Of a stretch of 38,305 bases of DNA, positions 3,642-19,137 are shown one piece after another; positions within the stretch are counted from its first letter, which is position 1; each line of letters opens with the position of its first letter. The notes under the pieces were generated by a model. That model ran no database searches. It worked only from the letters and a program-made list of their open reading frames with translations, and was not told the origin of the DNA. A program made the position numbers and the translations under genes. The stretch is from Clostridia bacterium (lineage in GTDB: Bacteria; UBA6262; WVXT01; JAUXBS01), in contig JAUXDE010000002.1 of the NCBI GenBank assembly GCA_030618495.1, positions 1 to 38,305 of the forward strand. Direction: 5' to 3'.

Positions 3642-3663
3642 TTATGTTTATTATAAATTTGCA

Positions 3664-3786
3664 GGGGTCAGACCTTAACATTTAACAAAATCTGAGTTTG
3701 ATACTTATTCAACAACTGCCAACAAATGAGCAAAAATAGTAATAATGTTAAGTGCTACTTTTTGTTAAATGTTAAGGTCTGACCCC
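3664..3786. repeat. Long inverted repeat (element B): perfect 27-bp arms GGGGTCAGACCTTAACATTTAACAAAA (3664-3690 and 3760-3786) around a 69-nt loop
   Basis: Base-by-base reverse-complement check shows 27/27 pairing. It fills the ROK-lptD intergenic space. The right arm contains the last 6 codons and the TAA of the ROK gene. Confidence 0.9.
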
Positions 3787-4769
3787 TTTTTAATTTGCCT
3801 TACCAGCAAGGCCGCTCCAACAACTCCAAGGTCATCACCCAGCTTTGAAATTATATAATTTATTGGTTTCCTCTTACTGACGAACGAACGTTTTCTTATG
3901 ACTCTTTTCATTGGCTCCAGGAACAAGTTTCCGGCGCGGGAAACACCGCCGCTGAACACAACAACCTCCGGATTCAATACGTTTATTATGCCTGCTAATG
4001 CGATCCCGAGGTACTCTCCTGTTTCCTCCCATATATTATTTGCCAGAGAATCATTTTTCCTTGCCGCTTCCGCAATAATTTTTGGAGTGATTTTATTTAA
4101 TTTGCCTTTTACAAGTCCGGTTATTTTAGTTTTTCTGCCCTTTTTTATTTCCTCTACCGTTCTTTCTACTATGGCGCCCGCACCGATATACTTTTCAAGA
4201 CAGCCGTTACTGCCGCAATTACACCTCGGCCCCTCCGTGTTAATTGTAACATGCCCTATTTCACCGGCAAGCCCGTTCGACCCGTGATAAATTTCGCCAT
4301 CGATAATAATCCCTCCCCCTACCCCAGTCCCCATTGTCACACAAACCACATCATTGACTGCGGCAGGAACTTCCAGTTGATATGCTCCCCAGGCGGCAAC
4401 GTTTGCGTCATTTTCAAGGAATATCGGAAGTTTTGATAAATTATTTCTCCTGATTTTCTTCTTCAGCATGCTCACAAAGGGGAATTTCTTTTTATACATA
4501 TTAGGAGAACACTTTATTTCCCCTTTCCCGTGGTCTATTAAACCCGCAGAACCTACCCCTATCCCCTGCACGGAATTAATCGGAACACCATCAACGATCT
4601 CGGATAATTGAACAGCTACATGATGAACAAATAATTCTTCTTTCTCCAGAACATTAGCGCTGTATTTTATTTTATTAACTATAACGCCTTTCATGTCCAC
4701 CAGGGCCACAGTAACATTAGTCCCCCCGATATCGACTCCTATTGAATATTTATAACCGGTTTGTTTCAT
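3765..4769 (-). CDS. ROK-family sugar kinase (glucokinase-like)
   Basis: GVDIGGTN ATP-binding start, GHVTIN, and the C-x-C-G-x(2)-G-C-x-E zinc motif (CNCGSNGCLEKY). Start moved to ATG 4769 (MKQTGYKYSIGVDIGG) because GGAG lies 4 nt upstream. The track start at 4805 lacks an SD. Confidence 0.85.
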   Translation of the reverse strand: MKQTGYKYSIGVDIGGTNVTVALVDMKGVIVNKIKYSANVLEKEELFVHHVAVQLSEIVDGVPINSVQGIGVGSAGLIDHGKGEIKCSPNMYKKKFPFVSMLKKKIRRNNLSKLPIFLENDANVAAWGAYQLEVPAAVNDVVCVTMGTGVGGGIIIDGEIYHGSNGLAGEIGHVTINTEGPRCNCGSNGCLEKYIGAGAIVERTVEEIKKGRKTKITGLVKGKLNKITPKIIAEAARKNDSLANNIWEETGEYLGIALAGIINVLNPEVVVFSGGVSRAGNLFLEPMKRVIRKRSFVSKRKPINYIISKLGDDLGVVGAALLVRQIKKGSDLNI

Positions 4770-10291: not shown

Positions 10292-11557
10292 TTAAACCCT
10301 GTTTTTTTTGACTCTTTTTATATCCGCCCCGAGTTTGGTTAATTTATTTTCAATTTTTTCATATCCCCTGTCAAGGTGATAAACCCGTGAAACCTCCGTC
10401 CTGCCACGGGCAAAAAGCCCTGCCAGGATAAGAGCAGCCGACGCGCGTAAATCCGATGCCATAACAGGGGCGCCGCTCAATTTGCTTGCGCCTTCAACGA
10501 AAGCGCTGTTCCCTTCAATCCTTATCTCCGCGCCCATACGGCACAGTTCCGCAACATGAAGGAACCTGTTCTCAAAAACCGTTTCGGTAATTATTGAAGA
10601 CCCCTTCACAGTGCTCATGAAAGCCATCCACTGGGCCTGCATGTCCGTAGGGAACCCCGGAAACGTTGAAGTCTTGATATCCTGTGTTTTTAGTTTTTCT
10701 CCCGCGCTGACACGGATTTCCCCGTCATTTATAACATCCACAACCACTCCTGACGCTCTTAACTTCTCAATTAATGGTTCCACGTCAACTGCTCTCATAT
10801 TCTTTAATAGCACGCTGCCCCTGGTTATTGCCGCAGCTATCATGTACGTTCCCGCCTCAATCCTGTCCGGGATAACACTATGGCGGGCTCCCCGGAGTTT
10901 CCGTACCCCCTGTATTCTGATAATGCTCGTGCCGGCGCCTTTTATAACGGCGCCCATTTTTACCAGGAAATCCGCCAGGTCTTTAATCTCAGGTTCGCAG
11001 GCAGCGTTCTCAATAACAGTTTTACCCGTTGCGTAAACCGCTGCGAGCATCAGGTTCTCCGTGGCTCCTACACTCGGAAAATCAAAATATATTTTGGCGC
11101 CCTTTAATCGTCCAGCCTTCATGCGTACATAGCCGTCACTGATATTAACTACGGCGCCCAGCTTTTTAAAACCTTCAAGGTGCAGGTTAACGGGCCGGCT
11201 TCCTATGGCGCATCCACCGGGAAGAGAAACCTCAACATGCCCCAACCGGGCAAGCATGGGCCCCATTACCAGCGCGGATGCTCTCATCTTCTTTACCTGG
11301 TCGTACGGAGTCTTTGAATTCAGTTTACCTGAAGAAGCTACGTGGACCTTCCTGCCTTTCCGGGTTATTTTTTTACCCAGATGATTCAGCAGGATAAGAA
11401 CAGTATCTATGTCCTTCAAATCAGGCACATTTTCGACAATGCATTCTTCATCCGTAAGTAACGTTGCAATCAATATTGGCAGTGACGCATTCTTGGAACC
11501 GTTGATGGTTACACTGCCGCTCAGCTTCTTCCCGCCGTTAATAATAATCTTATCCAT
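10292..11557 (-). CDS. murA: UDP-N-acetylglucosamine 1-carboxyvinyltransferase
   Basis: MDKIIINGGKKLSGSVTINGSKNASLPIL, active-site region LPGGCAIGSRPVNLH, and C-terminal YHLDRGYEKIENKL. Confidence 0.92.
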   Translation of the reverse strand: MDKIIINGGKKLSGSVTINGSKNASLPILIATLLTDEECIVENVPDLKDIDTVLILLNHLGKKITRKGRKVHVASSGKLNSKTPYDQVKKMRASALVMGPMLARLGHVEVSLPGGCAIGSRPVNLHLEGFKKLGAVVNISDGYVRMKAGRLKGAKIYFDFPSVGATENLMLAAVYATGKTVIENAACEPEIKDLADFLVKMGAVIKGAGTSIIRIQGVRKLRGARHSVIPDRIEAGTYMIAAAITRGSVLLKNMRAVDVEPLIEKLRASGVVVDVINDGEIRVSAGEKLKTQDIKTSTFPGFPTDMQAQWMAFMSTVKGSSIITETVFENRFLHVAELCRMGAEIRIEGNSAFVEGASKLSGAPVMASDLRASAALILAGLFARGRTEVSRVYHLDRGYEKIENKLTKLGADIKRVKKNRV

Positions 11558-11581
11558 TAATTAATTCCAAATTGTGGGGAG

Positions 11582-11655
11582 AATTTGGGGACACGTACCT
11601 AATTATTTTTTTTCGAGTTATGCCTTTAAAATAATTAGGTACGTGTCCCCAAATT
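11582..11655. repeat. Palindromic element A, copy 1: 28-bp perfect stem AATTTGGGGACACGTACCTAATTATTTT, 18-nt loop TTTTCGAGTTATGCCTTT
   Basis: Stem is 11582-11609 paired with 11628-11655. It is identical to the reverse complement of 18073-18146. The right arm encodes the last 6 codons (NLGTRT) and the TAA of prmC. A degenerate extra copy of the terminus (AATTGTGGGGA) flanks it at 11570-11580. Confidence 0.92.
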
Positions 11656-12546
11656 CACAACCACTATCCTGTCCTTGCCTGAATAATCCTTCACTATCCT
11701 TTTTAATGATAGTTCACCCGTATCATTAATAATTTTCCTGACCTCACTGCCCTGCTCACTTCCAATTTCCATAATTATGAAACCACCCTCAACCAGGTAC
11801 ATGCCGGCTTCGTTGATTATTCTCCTGTAAAACATGAGTCCGTCTTCACCCGCGTCCAGCGCCCTGGCGGGTTCCCGCAGAACCTCCTCCTGAATGCAGG
11901 CTAAATCCCCGGAACGTATATACGGCGGATTGGATACTATGAAATCCATGTTACAGAAGAAATCCCCCGAGCTGAAAGGATTAAAAAGATCCCCGGCAAA
12001 AAATCTTATATCATCGCTTACCCCGTTGATTTGGGCGTTCCTCCCTGCAACGTCCAGCGCCCTTGCGTCAACATCCGATGCAAACATATCAAAAACAATA
12101 CCTTTATCCTCCTTCAGGTATTTTGCAATGCTTACAGCAATATTACCCGAACCGGTGCACATATCCAATATCTTAACGACCTTCCCATTCTTGCGGTGAT
12201 TGTAACTCCTGATATGTTTTATAGTTTCTTCCACAAGCAACTCGGTTTCAGGCCTCGGGATTAACACATCTTCATTTAAGAAGAATTTTAACCCCATGAA
12301 TTCTTTTTCTCCGGTAAGATATGCCACGGGCTTTCGGCTTATTCTCTGGCGTATTAACTCCATATAGGAAGAAATGACACCCCCGGAAACCATCATGTCG
12401 TTTTTTACTATAAAATCCATCCTATTAATATCAAGTAAGTGGGCAAGCAGTACTTCCGCATCAATCCTGGCATCGGGTATGCCCTTTGCGGAAAGAAGGC
12501 TTTCGGCGTATCTTAAAATATCCCCCGCGCAACGATTTCTTTCCAT
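11635..12546 (-). CDS. prmC: Release-factor glutamine N5-methyltransferase
   Basis: SAM-binding LDMCTGSGNIA and catalytic NPPY (VSNPPYI). It lies downstream of prfA, as in most bacteria. Confidence 0.88.
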   Translation of the reverse strand: MERNRCAGDILRYAESLLSAKGIPDARIDAEVLLAHLLDINRMDFIVKNDMMVSGGVISSYMELIRQRISRKPVAYLTGEKEFMGLKFFLNEDVLIPRPETELLVEETIKHIRSYNHRKNGKVVKILDMCTGSGNIAVSIAKYLKEDKGIVFDMFASDVDARALDVAGRNAQINGVSDDIRFFAGDLFNPFSSGDFFCNMDFIVSNPPYIRSGDLACIQEEVLREPARALDAGEDGLMFYRRIINEAGMYLVEGGFIIMEIGSEQGSEVRKIINDTGELSLKRIVKDYSGKDRIVVVNLGTRT

Positions 12547-17532: not shown

Positions 17533-18063
17533 ATGCTAAAAAAAGATATCAACGCCGAGCATGAAGGAATTCTTGATATTGCGAACCTCATATGTATTGC
17601 AGCCCGTACCGCGCCAAAGGGTAAAGGTGTGGATAATATAGTCACCGCCATTGCAACTGAAAAAGATAAGGAAGAAATCGCCCGAAAAATGAAATCAATC
17701 GGCGAGAAAAACGGCAACAAGACCTTCCTGAGGGATTCGGACAATATCAACCGGGCGCAGGTTATCGTAATCATCGGCACCAAAACAAATCCTCTCAAAC
17801 TGAAACTCTGCGGTTTCTGCGGATTCAAGGATTGTGATGAAATGGAAAAGAACCGGGGAATTTGCGTTTTTAATTCAGGGGACCTGGGAATCGCAATAGG
17901 TTCGGCAGTCTCAACCGCCTCCATTCATAAGGTTGATAACCGTATCATGTACACGGTTGGATATGCAGCCCTTGAGATGAAATTACTTGGAGATGACGTG
18001 AGGATTGCCTACGGAATTCCACTTTCGGTAACCGGCAAGAACATCTTTTTCGACAGGAAATAA
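17533..18063 (+). CDS. DUF2148-family ferredoxin-domain protein
   Basis: AARTAPKGKGVDN..., CGFCGFKDC cysteine cluster, DLGIAIGSAV, NRIMYTVGYAALE, GIPLSVTGKNIFFDR. AGGAG SD upstream. The stop codon overlaps the outer arm of element A copy 2. Confidence 0.8.
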   Translation: MLKKDINAEHEGILDIANLICIAARTAPKGKGVDNIVTAIATEKDKEEIARKMKSIGEKNGNKTFLRDSDNINRAQVIVIIGTKTNPLKLKLCGFCGFKDCDEMEKNRGICVFNSGDLGIAIGSAVSTASIHKVDNRIMYTVGYAALEMKLLGDDVRIAYGIPLSVTGKNIFFDRK

Positions 18064-18161
18064 TTTGGGGAGAATTTGGGGACACGTACCTAATTATTTT
18101 AAAGGCATAACTCGAAAAAAAATAATTAGGTACGTGTCCCCAAATTATTTGTCCCCAAATT
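18062..18161. repeat. Palindromic element A, copy 2: core 18073-18146 plus an extra 10-bp outer stem (18062-18071 with 18152-18161)
   Basis: The core is the exact reverse complement of 11582-11655 (same stem, loop AAAGGCATAACTCGAAAA). It fills essentially the whole convergent DUF2148 / PorV-like intergenic region, so it is a plausible bidirectional terminator. Confidence 0.92.
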
Positions 18162-18162
18162 A

Positions 18163-19137
18163 TTAGAACTTGGCGGTAACTGAGAACCTGTGAGTAAACA
18201 AGTCCAGCACGCCGTAAGAAACCCACGCGTAATCAATGGCGAATTTCTCCAGATTAAAACCCGCTCCTACGGACAAACCTGAAAGGAAACCTAAATCGGC
18301 AAGGGTCGTTGTTTTAAATCCCGCCCTCACCGCAAACAACTTGGTGATGTAGTACTCTCCCCCGAAATGCAGGTTAAGCTCGTTATCGGCAGGCATGTTG
18401 ACATCTGCGCCAACGGTAAAATTACTTTCCATATCCTTGTACGCAATACCCACTTTTATGTTAAACGGCAAAGCAGCCTCCACTCCCGTAAAACTATCCG
18501 GTCCGCTGAAACTGTACCCCGCTCCTATGTTCTGGACTACCGCCCCGGCAAGGATTCCCTTGCCAAATTCCACCCCCTCTGATGCAAAGTGAACTCCGGC
18601 ATCAAAAGCAAGGCCTGTTGCCGCGTAACCGCCTCCGGCAATATTTTCAACCCCGATACCCTCATAAATCAATTTAACGCTTGCTCCGACACCGAACATC
18701 CCAAACTTCATGCTGAAAGCGCCGATACCCGCCAAATTGTTCGCTCCAAACAGGTAATCTGCCGTATCGGTATCACCTGTCCTCGCCTCCAGTCCTCCAA
18801 GGGTAACGTAAGACGCCCCCACGCCAAAAGCCATATTCTCGCCAATCGGCATCCCGAAAGCCGCAAAATCATGGTTGATGCCCTGGAACAGCATCATGTA
18901 AGAACCTGTCAACTGCATCCCGCTCATGCGGCACAGTCCCGCAGGGTTCCAGTAAAGGGCATTGATGTCGTCCGCAATACCCGCGAACACCTCCCCCATA
19001 CCAACGGCGCGCGCGCCTACCCCGAGTTTTAAAAACTGGGCGCCCAGCGTCCCCGCATTTACATTTATCTCCGCGCCCACAGGGTTTGCAAGCGCCAGGA
19101 TAAGCCCGGCAATTATTACAATTGTTTTCTTATTCAT
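18163..19137 (-). CDS. PorV/PorQ-like (UPF0164-type) outer-membrane beta-barrel protein
   Basis: Signal peptide, then GTLGAQFLKLGVGARAVGMGEVFAGIADDINALYWNPAGL, which I recognise as the family signature. Gly/aromatic-rich alternating strands and a terminal Phe (TAKF). AGGAGG lies 8 nt upstream, and the gap after the giant gene is 21 nt. Confidence 0.7.
   Translation of the reverse strand: MNKKTIVIIAGLILALANPVGAEINVNAGTLGAQFLKLGVGARAVGMGEVFAGIADDINALYWNPAGLCRMSGMQLTGSYMMLFQGINHDFAAFGMPIGENMAFGVGASYVTLGGLEARTGDTDTADYLFGANNLAGIGAFSMKFGMFGVGASVKLIYEGIGVENIAGGGYAATGLAFDAGVHFASEGVEFGKGILAGAVVQNIGAGYSFSGPDSFTGVEAALPFNIKVGIAYKDMESNFTVGADVNMPADNELNLHFGGEYYITKLFAVRAGFKTTTLADLGFLSGLSVGAGFNLEKFAIDYAWVSYGVLDLFTHRFSVTAKF

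What the first reader, a model, noticed from the sequence alone, without database searches (positions are those of the whole stretch)
11570..11655. A 74-nt perfect palindromic element in two identical copies; this copy supplies the C-terminus and stop codon of prmC
Seen in sequence: 11582-11655 consists of a 28-bp stem (AATTTGGGGACACGTACCTAATTATTTT), an 18-nt loop, and the 28-bp complement. The region 18073-18146 is its exact reverse complement (74/74); the loop orientation shows the inversion. The last six prmC codons (NLGTRT) and its TAA lie inside the right arm, so the element has rewritten the gene's 3' end. Both copies carry an extra degenerate copy of the 10-12 nt terminus on the same element side (AATTGTGGGGA here, TCCCCAAATT at 18152-18161), and copy 2 has one on the other side as well (AATTTGGGGA at 18062-18071). 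This looks like a MITE/REP/Correia-like mobile or recombinogenic repeat, with reiterated end-binding sites. No transposase is in the window, and I do not recognise the sequence as a known family.
Basis: seen in the sequence. Interest (0 to 1): 0.65.

Follow-up and report, generated by a model that had tools for sequence, protein, structure and literature searches.

The report
Mobile hairpin repeat rewrote prmC's end
The 74-base palindrome is one copy of a small mobile hairpin repeat (a REPIN-like element) that goes with a single tyrosine transposase gene elsewhere in the genome; its recent insertion replaced the last codons of prmC, but this is a known kind of element.

Summary
Window 11582-11655 is a perfect 28-bp-stem, 18-nt-loop palindrome, and 18073-18146 is its exact reverse complement.

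It is not a two-copy oddity. The arm occurs 47 times (about 24 loci) in this 1.69-Mb assembly, nearly always as inverted doublets. The loops vary and fall into subfamilies.

On contig C61, two arms in inverted orientation flank the genome's only HUH/Y1 transposase gene (218 aa). Its best sequence and fold match is E. coli TnpA-REP.

Orthologous transposases in two order-level relatives are flanked by a diverged arm. Each of those genomes holds 36-38 copies of its own variant and none of ours.

The arm carries the GGGGWSAS motif described for "TIRYT/TIRtron" systems.

Contigs from other sediment samples show near-identical strains with empty sites at both window positions. In the empty allele prmC ends ...DRIVVGIN* and its TAA overlaps the murA ATG. 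The 87-90-nt insertion gave ...DRIVVVNLGTRT* and moved murA 77 nt away.

Five other genes also end in an arm, with tails ending GT(R/C)T*.

Verdict: a REPIN-like population of a RAYT/TIRYT system, a new member of a known kind. The short reiterated outer ends remain unexplained.

The parts
11581..11656 (.). REPIN-like doublet, copy 1: arms 11582-11609 and 11628-11655 (29 bp with G11581/C11656), 18-nt loop 11610-11627
   Evidence: (I3)
11568..11657 (.). The 90-nt segment absent from the empty-site allele (3-nt CAA/TTG ambiguity, so an 87-nt insert plus 3). It comprises the palindrome plus the partial outer-end copy
   Evidence: Contigs of runs X2 and X4 join 11567 to 11658; reconstruction
11570..11580 (+). 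Partial direct copy of the arm's outer end (AATTGTGGGGA). It is part of the inserted DNA, not of the target
11635..12546 (-). prmC (release-factor glutamine methyltransferase). The last 21 nt (NLGTRT + TAA, 11635-11655) are read from the right arm
10292..11557 (-). murA. Its ATG overlaps the prmC stop (TAATG) in the empty allele and lies 77 nt after it in the occupied allele
18073..18146 (.). REPIN-like doublet, copy 2: exact reverse complement of copy 1, between convergent genes
   Evidence: I1, I6
18066..18159 (.). The 94-nt segment that is replaced by AAAAAC in the empty-site allele of run X2. It comprises the palindrome plus partial outer-end copies on both sides (TGGGGAG on the left, ATTTGTCCCCAAA on the right)
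18062..18071 (+). Partial outer-end copy AATTTGGGGA. Its AATT is target sequence (it overlaps the TAA stop of the DUF2148 gene); TGGGGA came with the insert
18152..18161 (-). Partial outer-end copy TCCCCAAATT on the other side of copy 2
17533..18063 (+). DUF2148 ferredoxin-domain gene. Its stop lies 9 nt before copy 2
18163..19137 (-). PorV-like outer-membrane barrel gene. Its stop lies 16 nt after copy 2

Best explanation
The palindrome is a non-autonomous mobile element of the REPIN type: two copies of a 25-28-nt repeat, (G)AATT[A]TGGGGACACGTAC[C/T]TAATTATT, in inverted orientation around a short variable spacer.

It belongs to a population of about 24 loci in this genome. It is most likely mobilised in trans by the single HUH/Y1 tyrosine transposase (RAYT/TIRYT type, 218 aa) encoded at G000:C61:1172-1828, whose gene is bracketed by the same two arms.

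By analogy with IS200/IS605 and E. coli TnpA-REP, the enzyme would act on single-stranded DNA in which the doublet folds into a 28-29-bp hairpin. It would cut and rejoin at the foot of the hairpin and insert the unit into AT-rich AATT-containing spacers at gene ends.

Steps that are shown:
- the family and its doublet architecture;
- the physical and co-evolutionary association with the transposase;
- the presence/absence polymorphism between near-identical strains at both window sites;
- the effect on prmC: the tail GIN* became VNLGTRT*, the TAATG overlap with murA was lost, and a 29-bp hairpin now lies 24 nt before the murA ATG.

Steps that are inferred:
- that this enzyme is the mobilising activity;
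- the single-strand mechanism;
- the cleavage positions.
For: 1. Family. The arm core occurs 24 times forward and 23 times reverse in the own genome, and 0 times in 39 of 40 relatives, including the same-genus genome (one lone chance-level 2-mismatch match in unrelated G040); the reversed-pattern control also gives 0. All but two loci are inverted doublets.

2. Loops differ between loci but recur in subfamilies (C44/C106; C28/C128b/C29; C82/C88/C152/C50; the two window copies plus C3). Whole doublets therefore multiply as units.

3. Arm variants are mirrored in both arms of every doublet: the outer AATT versus AATTA form is concordant in all doublets, position 13 is C/C or T/T and never mixed, and position 19 is G/G in two doublets.

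4. Transposase.
- C61:1151-1980 is arm - 218-aa ORF - inverted arm.
- Pfam Y1_Tnp 2e-14. The best NCBIfam model is REP_Tyr_transpos at 65.5 bits.
- The only significant PDB sequence hit is TnpA-REP 4ER8. H60/H62, Y119 and N123 align to its H59/H61, Y115 and N119 (residue roles from PMC3479197). These residues are invariant in 26 homologues.
- The AF2 model has pLDDT 92, and its best fold match is 4er8_A at E 2e-9, ahead of IS608/ISDra2.
- The gene is single-copy in the assembly.

5. Co-diversification. Orthologues at 67-68% identity in G002 and G010 are flanked by TTCTGGGGACACAATACTTAATTAT. Those genomes hold 36 and 38 copies of that variant and none of ours.

6. Mobility.
- Contigs in X2 and X4 join 11567 to 11658. 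In X4 the sides are 368 and 128 nt with one mismatch.
- X2 joins 18065 to 18160 with AAAAAC between, with sides of 316 and 278 nt.
- X8, from the same study, holds the occupied junction.
- Older, degenerate loci (C128) are occupied in all strains.

7. The empty allele looks ancestral. Relatives keep prmC-murA adjacent with 2-19-nt spacers and PrmC tails DRVVVAQKLxx*.

8. The arm fits the GGGGWSAS motif of TIRYT-flanking repeats (PMC3733652; PMC6006769).
Against: - No experiment or read-level evidence links this enzyme to movement of the repeats.
- A single arm does not fold on its own (z = -0.8 to +0.8), unlike the classical REP hairpin that TnpA-REP binds. It also carries no GTAG or CGTC tag, so the recognition mode may differ.
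- The transposase scores below the NCBIfam RAYT cut-off (65.5 against 80).
- The two insertions are not clean. Site 1 has a 3-nt TTG ambiguity and an extra 10-11-nt partial end. Site 2 replaces six bases and has partial ends on both sides. This is not the seamless insertion known for IS200/IS605.
- The empty-site evidence comes from assembled unitigs of metagenomes, not raw reads.
Confidence: 0.88

Rival explanations
1. A host-selected structural hairpin (transcription terminator, mRNA 3'-end stabiliser or protein-binding site) that is conserved in place and is not mobile.
For: The elements lie in transcribed spacers next to stop codons. The stems are perfect and arm variants are compensated. 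Classical REPs are known to stabilise upstream mRNA.
Against: Near-identical strains differ in presence or absence at both sites. The repeat is genome-specific and absent from the same-genus genome. The arms bracket a transposase gene. The consensus scan calls no terminator at either copy: the loop is 18 nt and there is no T tract. Copy 1 sits inside an operon 24 nt before the murA start. A secondary RNA-level effect is still possible.
Confidence: 0.03
2. A MITE derived from a conventional (DDE-type) insertion sequence: the arms are terminal inverted repeats acted on as double-stranded DNA, with target-site duplication.
For: The arms behave as TIRs and do not fold singly. A 3-nt TTG repeat flanks the site-1 insert.
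Against: The only gene bracketed by the arms is a Y1/HUH enzyme. tblastn finds no other copy of it, and no DDE gene was seen next to any arm. Site 2 has no duplication; six bases are replaced instead. A 3-nt match is weak evidence (1 in 64 by chance).
Confidence: 0.04
3. The copies spread or are homogenised mainly by recombination or gene conversion between hairpins (or by template switching at replication), with the Y1 enzyme only incidentally associated.
For: A third allele at site 2 in runs X3/X5 carries a different doublet subtype at the same position. The loops of the two window copies are inverted while the left flank TGGGGAG is shared (D6). Arm variants are perfectly mirrored.
Against: Recombination does not explain de novo appearance at an empty, unrelated site such as the prmC codons. 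It also does not explain why each transposase orthologue has its own matching repeat population.
Confidence: 0.05

Closest known systems
TIRYT / TIRtron systems with GGGGWSAS repeats (Di Nocera, De Gregorio and Rocco 2013, PMC3733652); probably TnpA-REP subclass 2.1 of Quentin et al. 2018 (PMC6006769)
   Same: A RAYT-like HUH/Y1 gene is bracketed by terminal inverted repeats that are not self-folding REPs. The repeat carries GGGG[AT][CG]A[CG] (here GGGGACAC). One repeat overlaps the 3' end of the gene. The genome holds a moderately abundant family of the same repeat, mostly as dimers. The protein is longer than E. coli RAYT.
   Different: No Bac_DnaA_C, HTH_23 or HTH_28 domain is detectable in the C-terminal 78 residues. 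Instead there is a conserved tail, TGRPLG..F...LE...GR.L...KPGP. Subclass membership was not tested against reference sequences. The host is an uncultured cold-seep/sediment lineage.
REPIN-RAYT systems (Bertels and Rainey 2011, PMC3116915; Bertels et al. 2017, PMC5581495)
   Same: Inverted doublets form hairpins and multiply as units. The transposase gene is single-copy and flanked by the repeat. Populations are lineage-specific and co-diversify with the enzyme.
   Different: The population is small (about 24 loci, against hundreds). The stems are perfect at 28-29 bp. The single repeat has no palindrome of its own.
E. coli REP/BIME with TnpA-REP (Messing et al. 2012, PMC3479197)
   Same: It is the best sequence and fold match of the enzyme, and the HUH, catalytic Tyr and Asn ligand are conserved. 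The repeats are extragenic and lie at gene 3' ends.
   Different: There is no 5' GTAG tag and no imperfect single-REP hairpin with a bulge. The metal ligand H123 of TnpA-REP is Ala here. The C-terminal region differs.
IS200/IS605 transposons (IS608, ISDra2)
   Same: The HUH/Y1 fold. The hairpin-dependent single-strand mechanism is the model for how this element would move.
   Different: Those elements carry their own transposase in every copy, have different left and right subterminal hairpins, and insert seamlessly 3' of a fixed tetra- or pentanucleotide. Here the gene is single-copy and the junctions carry extra partial ends.

Membership tests
REPIN-RAYT system | Short repeat over-represented in extragenic space of one genome | tested here: met
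   47 arm copies in 1.69 Mb against 0 for the reversed control. All lie in spacers or the last 21 nt of ORFs.
REPIN-RAYT system | Repeats arranged as inverted doublets that form a hairpin and evolve as a unit | tested here: met
   22 of about 24 loci are inverted doublets. Loop subfamilies recur, arm variants are mirrored, and the fold z-score is -10.
REPIN-RAYT system | A Y1/HUH transposase gene flanked by the same repeat, typically single-copy | tested here: met
   C61:1151-1980, with one tblastn hit in the genome.
REPIN-RAYT system | Each single REP is itself an imperfect palindrome | tested here: not met
   Single arms fold no better than shuffles (-1.3, -0.9 and 0 kcal/mol; z = -0.8 to +0.8).
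GTAG / CGTC-tagged REP superfamilies | Unpaired GTAG or CGTC tetranucleotide at one end of the hairpin | tested here: not met
   The consensus (G)AATT[A]TGGGGACACGTACCTAATTATT contains neither tag on either strand.
TIRYT / TIRtron | RAYT-like gene bracketed by terminal inverted repeats unrelated to GTAG REPs | tested here: met
   28-nt perfect core, in 42-nt arms 88% complementary, 764 nt apart around the gene.
TIRYT / TIRtron | TIR carries the GGGGWSAS motif | tested here: met
   GGGGACAC in all 49 arm copies aligned. The motif is as given in PMC3733652 and PMC6006769.
TnpA-REP subclass 2.1 (Quentin 2018) | C-terminal HTH-like domain (Bac_DnaA_C, HTH_23 or HTH_28) | tested here: inconclusive
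   There is no Pfam hit in residues 141-218 even at E <= 10. The model shows three confident helices there, but their fold was not compared separately.
HUH/Y1 transposase (Pfam PF01797) | HUH motif and catalytic tyrosine on the Y1 fold | tested here: met
   PF01797 at 54 bits against a cut-off of 23. H60-V-H62 and Y119 are invariant. The fold matches 4er8, 2a6m and 2xma.
NCBIfam REP_Tyr_transpos (NF047646) | Score at or above the curated cut-off of 80 bits | tested here: not met
   65.5 bits. It is the best model but falls below the cut-off.
Mobile element (any) | Presence/absence polymorphism with otherwise identical flanks | tested here: met
   Empty alleles at both window sites in runs X2 and X4; occupied alleles in X1, X3, X5 and X8.
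Mobile element (any) | Catalysis of excision or insertion by the associated enzyme | not testable with these tools
   This needs biochemistry or genetics.

The most novel reading that the evidence does not exclude
This clade of about 220-aa Y1 enzymes has a conserved TGRPLG...KPGP tail and arms that cannot fold singly. It may recognise the stem of the doublet hairpin rather than a single REP hairpin, and insert next to AATT at TAA-TT stop contexts by a chemistry that leaves short 'stutter' copies of the outer end (AATT-TGGGGA...) at each new junction. The partial ends would then be a readable footprint of the cleavage and joining positions. The element would also have a built-in tendency to rewrite gene 3' ends: six genes here end in GT(R/C)T* read from an arm.
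Probability: 0.15. Interest if true: 0.55.

Novelty: new member of a known kind. Interest (0 to 1): 0.3.

Why it matters
The finding extends REPIN/TIRYT-type repeat-and-enzyme partnerships to a compact genome (1.7 Mb, median co-directional spacer 18 nt) of an uncultured cold-seep/sediment lineage.

It also gives something uncommon for this kind of element: matched occupied and empty alleles in natural populations. These show an insertion that replaced the last codons of a housekeeping gene and broke a TAATG translational coupling with the murA gene.

For annotation, six proteins in this genome carry element-derived C-terminal tails and stops. The same prmC-murA spacer has been hit by different palindrome families in related genera.

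It does not change what is known about how such elements work.

Tried and rejected
- Rfam at gathering thresholds found nothing in the window.
- The terminator/promoter consensus scan did not call either copy a terminator.
- The exact-sequence cluster look-up for PrmC returned only the window's own protein, so it gave no independent protein-level record of the empty allele.
- No RNA runs hold the region, so 3'-end formation at the hairpin could not be tested.
- I tested whether the elements avoid divergent (promoter) spacers. With a crude ORF-based gene map, 16 co-directional, 2 convergent and 0 divergent sites do not differ from the genome's spacer mix of 83/9/8% (P = 0.21). I therefore make no claim of orientation or position preference beyond 'in spacers and gene ends'.
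- The close hugging of stop codons is largely explained by the 18-nt median spacer.
- A single-arm hairpin (AATTA...TAATT) was considered and rejected by folding.
- Pfam at E <= 10 found no HTH in the transposase tail.
- Laying contig C128 on four runs showed no polymorphism at its two older loci.
- I could not name the organism.

Full report
**Observation.**
- Window 11582-11609 (AATTTGGGGACACGTACCTAATTATTTT) and 11628-11655 are perfectly complementary around an 18-nt loop. With G11581/C11656 the stem is 29 bp (I3).
- 18073-18146 is the exact reverse complement (I1, 75/75).
- As single-stranded DNA the element folds at about -30.5 kcal/mol against -7.2 +/- 2.3 for dinucleotide shuffles (z = -10).
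- The short partial copies of the outer end at 11570-11580, 18062-18071 and 18152-18161 are present.

**Gene context**.
- The minus strand carries hisA, hisB, murA (10292-11557), prmC (11635-12546; TIGR03534 1.5e-76), prfA, rpmE and tyrS.
- Copy 1 fills the prmC-murA spacer. The last 21 nt of prmC (NLGTRT + TAA) are read from the right arm.
- Copy 2 lies between the convergent DUF2148 gene (17533-18063, +) and a PorV-like barrel gene (18163-19137, -).
- Rfam finds nothing. The terminator scan does not call either copy: the loop is too long and there is no T tract.

**It is a family.** The window is contig C151 of a 1.69-Mb, 179-contig assembly.
- The 20-nt arm core TGGGGACACGTACCTAATTA, allowing up to 2 mismatches, occurs 24 times forward and 23 times reverse in this genome.
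- It occurs 0 times in 39 of 40 other genomes searched, including the same-genus one. The only other match is a single 2-mismatch hit in the unrelated G040. The reversed control pattern gives 0 in this genome and a single hit, also in G040.
- The copies form about 24 loci. All but two are inverted doublets with 14-45-nt spacers.
- Spacers differ between loci but recur in subfamilies: C44 = C106; C28 = C128b = inverted C29; C82 = C88 = inverted C152/C50; and the two window copies plus a 95% copy on C3. Whole doublets, not single arms, are therefore what multiplies.
- Aligning all 49 arms (up to 3 mismatches) gives the consensus (G)AATT[A]TGGGGACACGTAC[C/T]TAATTATT. Conservation ends about 6 nt outside and 21 nt inside the core start.
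- Three variant positions are mirrored in both arms of every doublet, with no mixed case: outer AATT versus AATTA, position 13 C/T, and position 19 A/G. That points either to selection for pairing or to copying of one arm from the other.

**The enzyme.**
- On contig C61 two arms in inverted orientation (1151-1178 and 1953-1980) bracket a 218-aa ORF (1172-1828, minus). Its own stop codon also lies in an arm.
- It matches Pfam Y1_Tnp (2e-14). Its best NCBIfam model is the REP-associated tyrosine transposase, at 65.5 bits against a cut-off of 80.
- The only significant PDB sequence hit is E. coli TnpA-REP (4ER8).
- H60-V-H62, Y119 and N123 align with its HUH H59/H61, catalytic Y115 and metal ligand N119. 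The residue roles come from PMC3479197.
- These residues are invariant among 26 homologues from many phyla.
- An AlphaFold model (pLDDT 92) has 4er8_A as its best fold match (E 2e-9, TM 0.73 on the target), ahead of the IS608, ISDra2 and IS200 transposases.
- tblastn finds no second copy in the assembly.

**Co-diversification.**
- Orthologues at 67-68% identity in two order-level relatives (G002, G010) are bracketed by a related but diverged arm, TTCTGGGGACACAATACTTAATTAT.
- Those genomes hold 36 and 38 copies of that variant and none of ours.
- More distant homologues are bracketed by GGGGACAACTACC, AGGGACAGCGACC and similar.
- One Omnitrophica MAG (56% protein identity) has an identical 18-nt arm core but only four copies.

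**Mobility.** The region is held by cold-seep and sediment metagenomes.

| Site | Allele | Runs | Evidence |
|---|---|---|---|
| 1 (prmC-murA) | empty | X2, X4 | 11567 joined to 11658. In X4 the sides are 368 and 128 nt with one mismatch. |
| 1 | occupied | X1, X3, X5, X8 | Contigs cross the element junctions. |
| 2 (DUF2148 / PorV-like) | empty | X2 | 18065 joined to 18160 with AAAAAC between; sides 316 and 278 nt. |
| 2 | third allele | X3, X5 | A different doublet subtype at the same position. |

The two older, degenerate loci on C128 are occupied in all four runs laid there (X1-X4). This fits the two identical window copies being young.

**What the insertion did**.
- Joining the flanks gives an empty allele in which prmC ends ...KDRIVVGIN* and its TAA overlaps the murA ATG (TAATG).
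- The occupied allele reads ...KDRIVVVNLGTRT*. It has 77 nt, including the 29-bp hairpin, before the murA ATG.
- In nine relatives prmC and murA are adjacent. Spacers are 2-19 nt where no element is present, and PrmC ends DRVVVAQKLxx*. Homology to our protein stops exactly where the arm begins.
- Five other ORFs also run exactly 21 nt into an arm and end IMGTRT*, NSGTRT*, IMGTCT* (twice) or IKGTCT*.

**Comparison with what is known.**
- The arms lack the GTAG and CGTC tags of the large REP superfamilies.
- A single arm does not fold on its own. The classical REP definition is therefore not met.
- The arm does fit the GGGGWSAS motif. Di Nocera et al. found that motif in terminal inverted repeats bracketing RAYT-like genes, which they named TIRYTs and TIRtrons. 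They noted moderately abundant dimeric repeat families there (PMC3733652).
- Quentin et al. equate most TIRYTs with TnpA-REP subclass 2.1, which has a C-terminal HTH-like domain (PMC6006769).
- I could not detect such a domain by Pfam. The clade does share a conserved tail, TGRPLG..F...LE...GR.L...KPGP.
- In behaviour the system matches the REPIN-RAYT picture of Bertels and Rainey: a single-copy enzyme and lineage-specific doublet populations (PMC5581495).

**What stays open.**
- Thirteen partial copies of the outer end lie just outside 9 of the 24 loci. They are always direct repeats of the adjacent arm.
- The empty alleles show that these partial copies came with, or were made at, the insertion rather than pre-existing in the target. 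At site 2 the target's AATT and TT complete them.
- The junctions are not seamless as in IS200/IS605. Site 1 has a 3-nt TTG ambiguity. Site 2 replaces six bases.
- On the + strand both window copies share TGGGGAG to the left although their loops are inverted (D6). That suggests either loop flipping between the arms or a strand-linked insertion process.
- I found no statistical preference among spacer types.
- No RNA data exist for the RNA-level questions.

**Verdict.** The element is real, well above chance, and well explained as a REPIN-like population of a RAYT/TIRYT system. It is a new member of a known kind. The population-level insertion evidence is useful, and one anatomical detail (the reiterated outer ends) remains unexplained.

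Noticed in passing
window 3663-3787; also G000 contigs C82, C108, C13, C101, C18, C54 and others: A second, different palindromic family. Its arms are AGGGGTCAGACCTTAACATTTAACAAAA with a 69-nt loop in the window. About 15-25 good copies of GGGGTCAGACCT exist genome-wide (15 exact 11-mers against 1 for the reversed control). It also fits GGGGWSAS, but no second Y1 transposase is in the assembly.
   Followed up: partly
G000:C106:6988-7100: A family-1 doublet sits inside a family-2 palindrome (GGGGTCAGGTCT ... AGACCTGACCCC). This looks like a nested insertion.
   Followed up: no
L015 (G006) and L019 (G002), prmC-murA spacer; L019-L021 PrmC tails: Related genera carry GGGGTCAG-type palindromes in the same prmC-murA spacer. 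In G002, G010 and G007 the PrmC tail ...RK(W/G)GQ* is read from GGGGTCAG. The same junction has therefore been hit independently by another repeat family.
   Followed up: partly
window 18066-18159, runs X3 and X5: A third allele at site 2: contigs carry a doublet of the ACTTAATT subtype with a different loop and a nearly complete extra arm on the left (26 gap columns, 15-20 substitutions). The same spacer therefore exists empty, with subtype C and with subtype T in different samples.
   Followed up: partly
G000 contigs C19, C128 (6135), C152, C157: The only recurrent unmirrored arm change is C>T at the CpG of ACACGT (position 8). In all four doublets it gives a G.T wobble on the sense strand of the flanking genes, in the arm nearest the upstream stop. 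In three of them it changes the element-encoded tail from GTRT* to GTCT*. The numbers are too small to interpret.
   Followed up: partly
L032 (Omnitrophica WOR_2 MAG, MHGF01000011.1): A transposase only 56% identical to ours is bracketed by an arm core identical to ours (GGGGACACGTACCTAATT), but that genome holds only four copies. This is either strong conservation of the recognition sequence or horizontal transfer.
   Followed up: partly
G000:C61:1172-1828 and alignment A1: The roughly 220-aa clade, found in Omnitrophota, Aminicenantes, Spirochaetota, Planctomycetes, Desulfobacterota and other MAGs, shares a conserved C-terminal tail TGRPLG..F...LE...GR.L...KPGP with no Pfam match. The model shows confident helices at 165-170, 175-187 and 194-204.
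   Followed up: partly
whole genome G000: The genome is very compact. A crude ORF map gives 83% co-directional gene pairs with a median spacer of 18 nt, so 70-90-nt doublets are among the largest non-coding features.
   Followed up: partly
window 11558-11581: murA has no Shine-Dalgarno-like sequence before its ATG in either allele (GGAATTAATTAATG), whereas relatives have GAGGAGG there.
   Followed up: no
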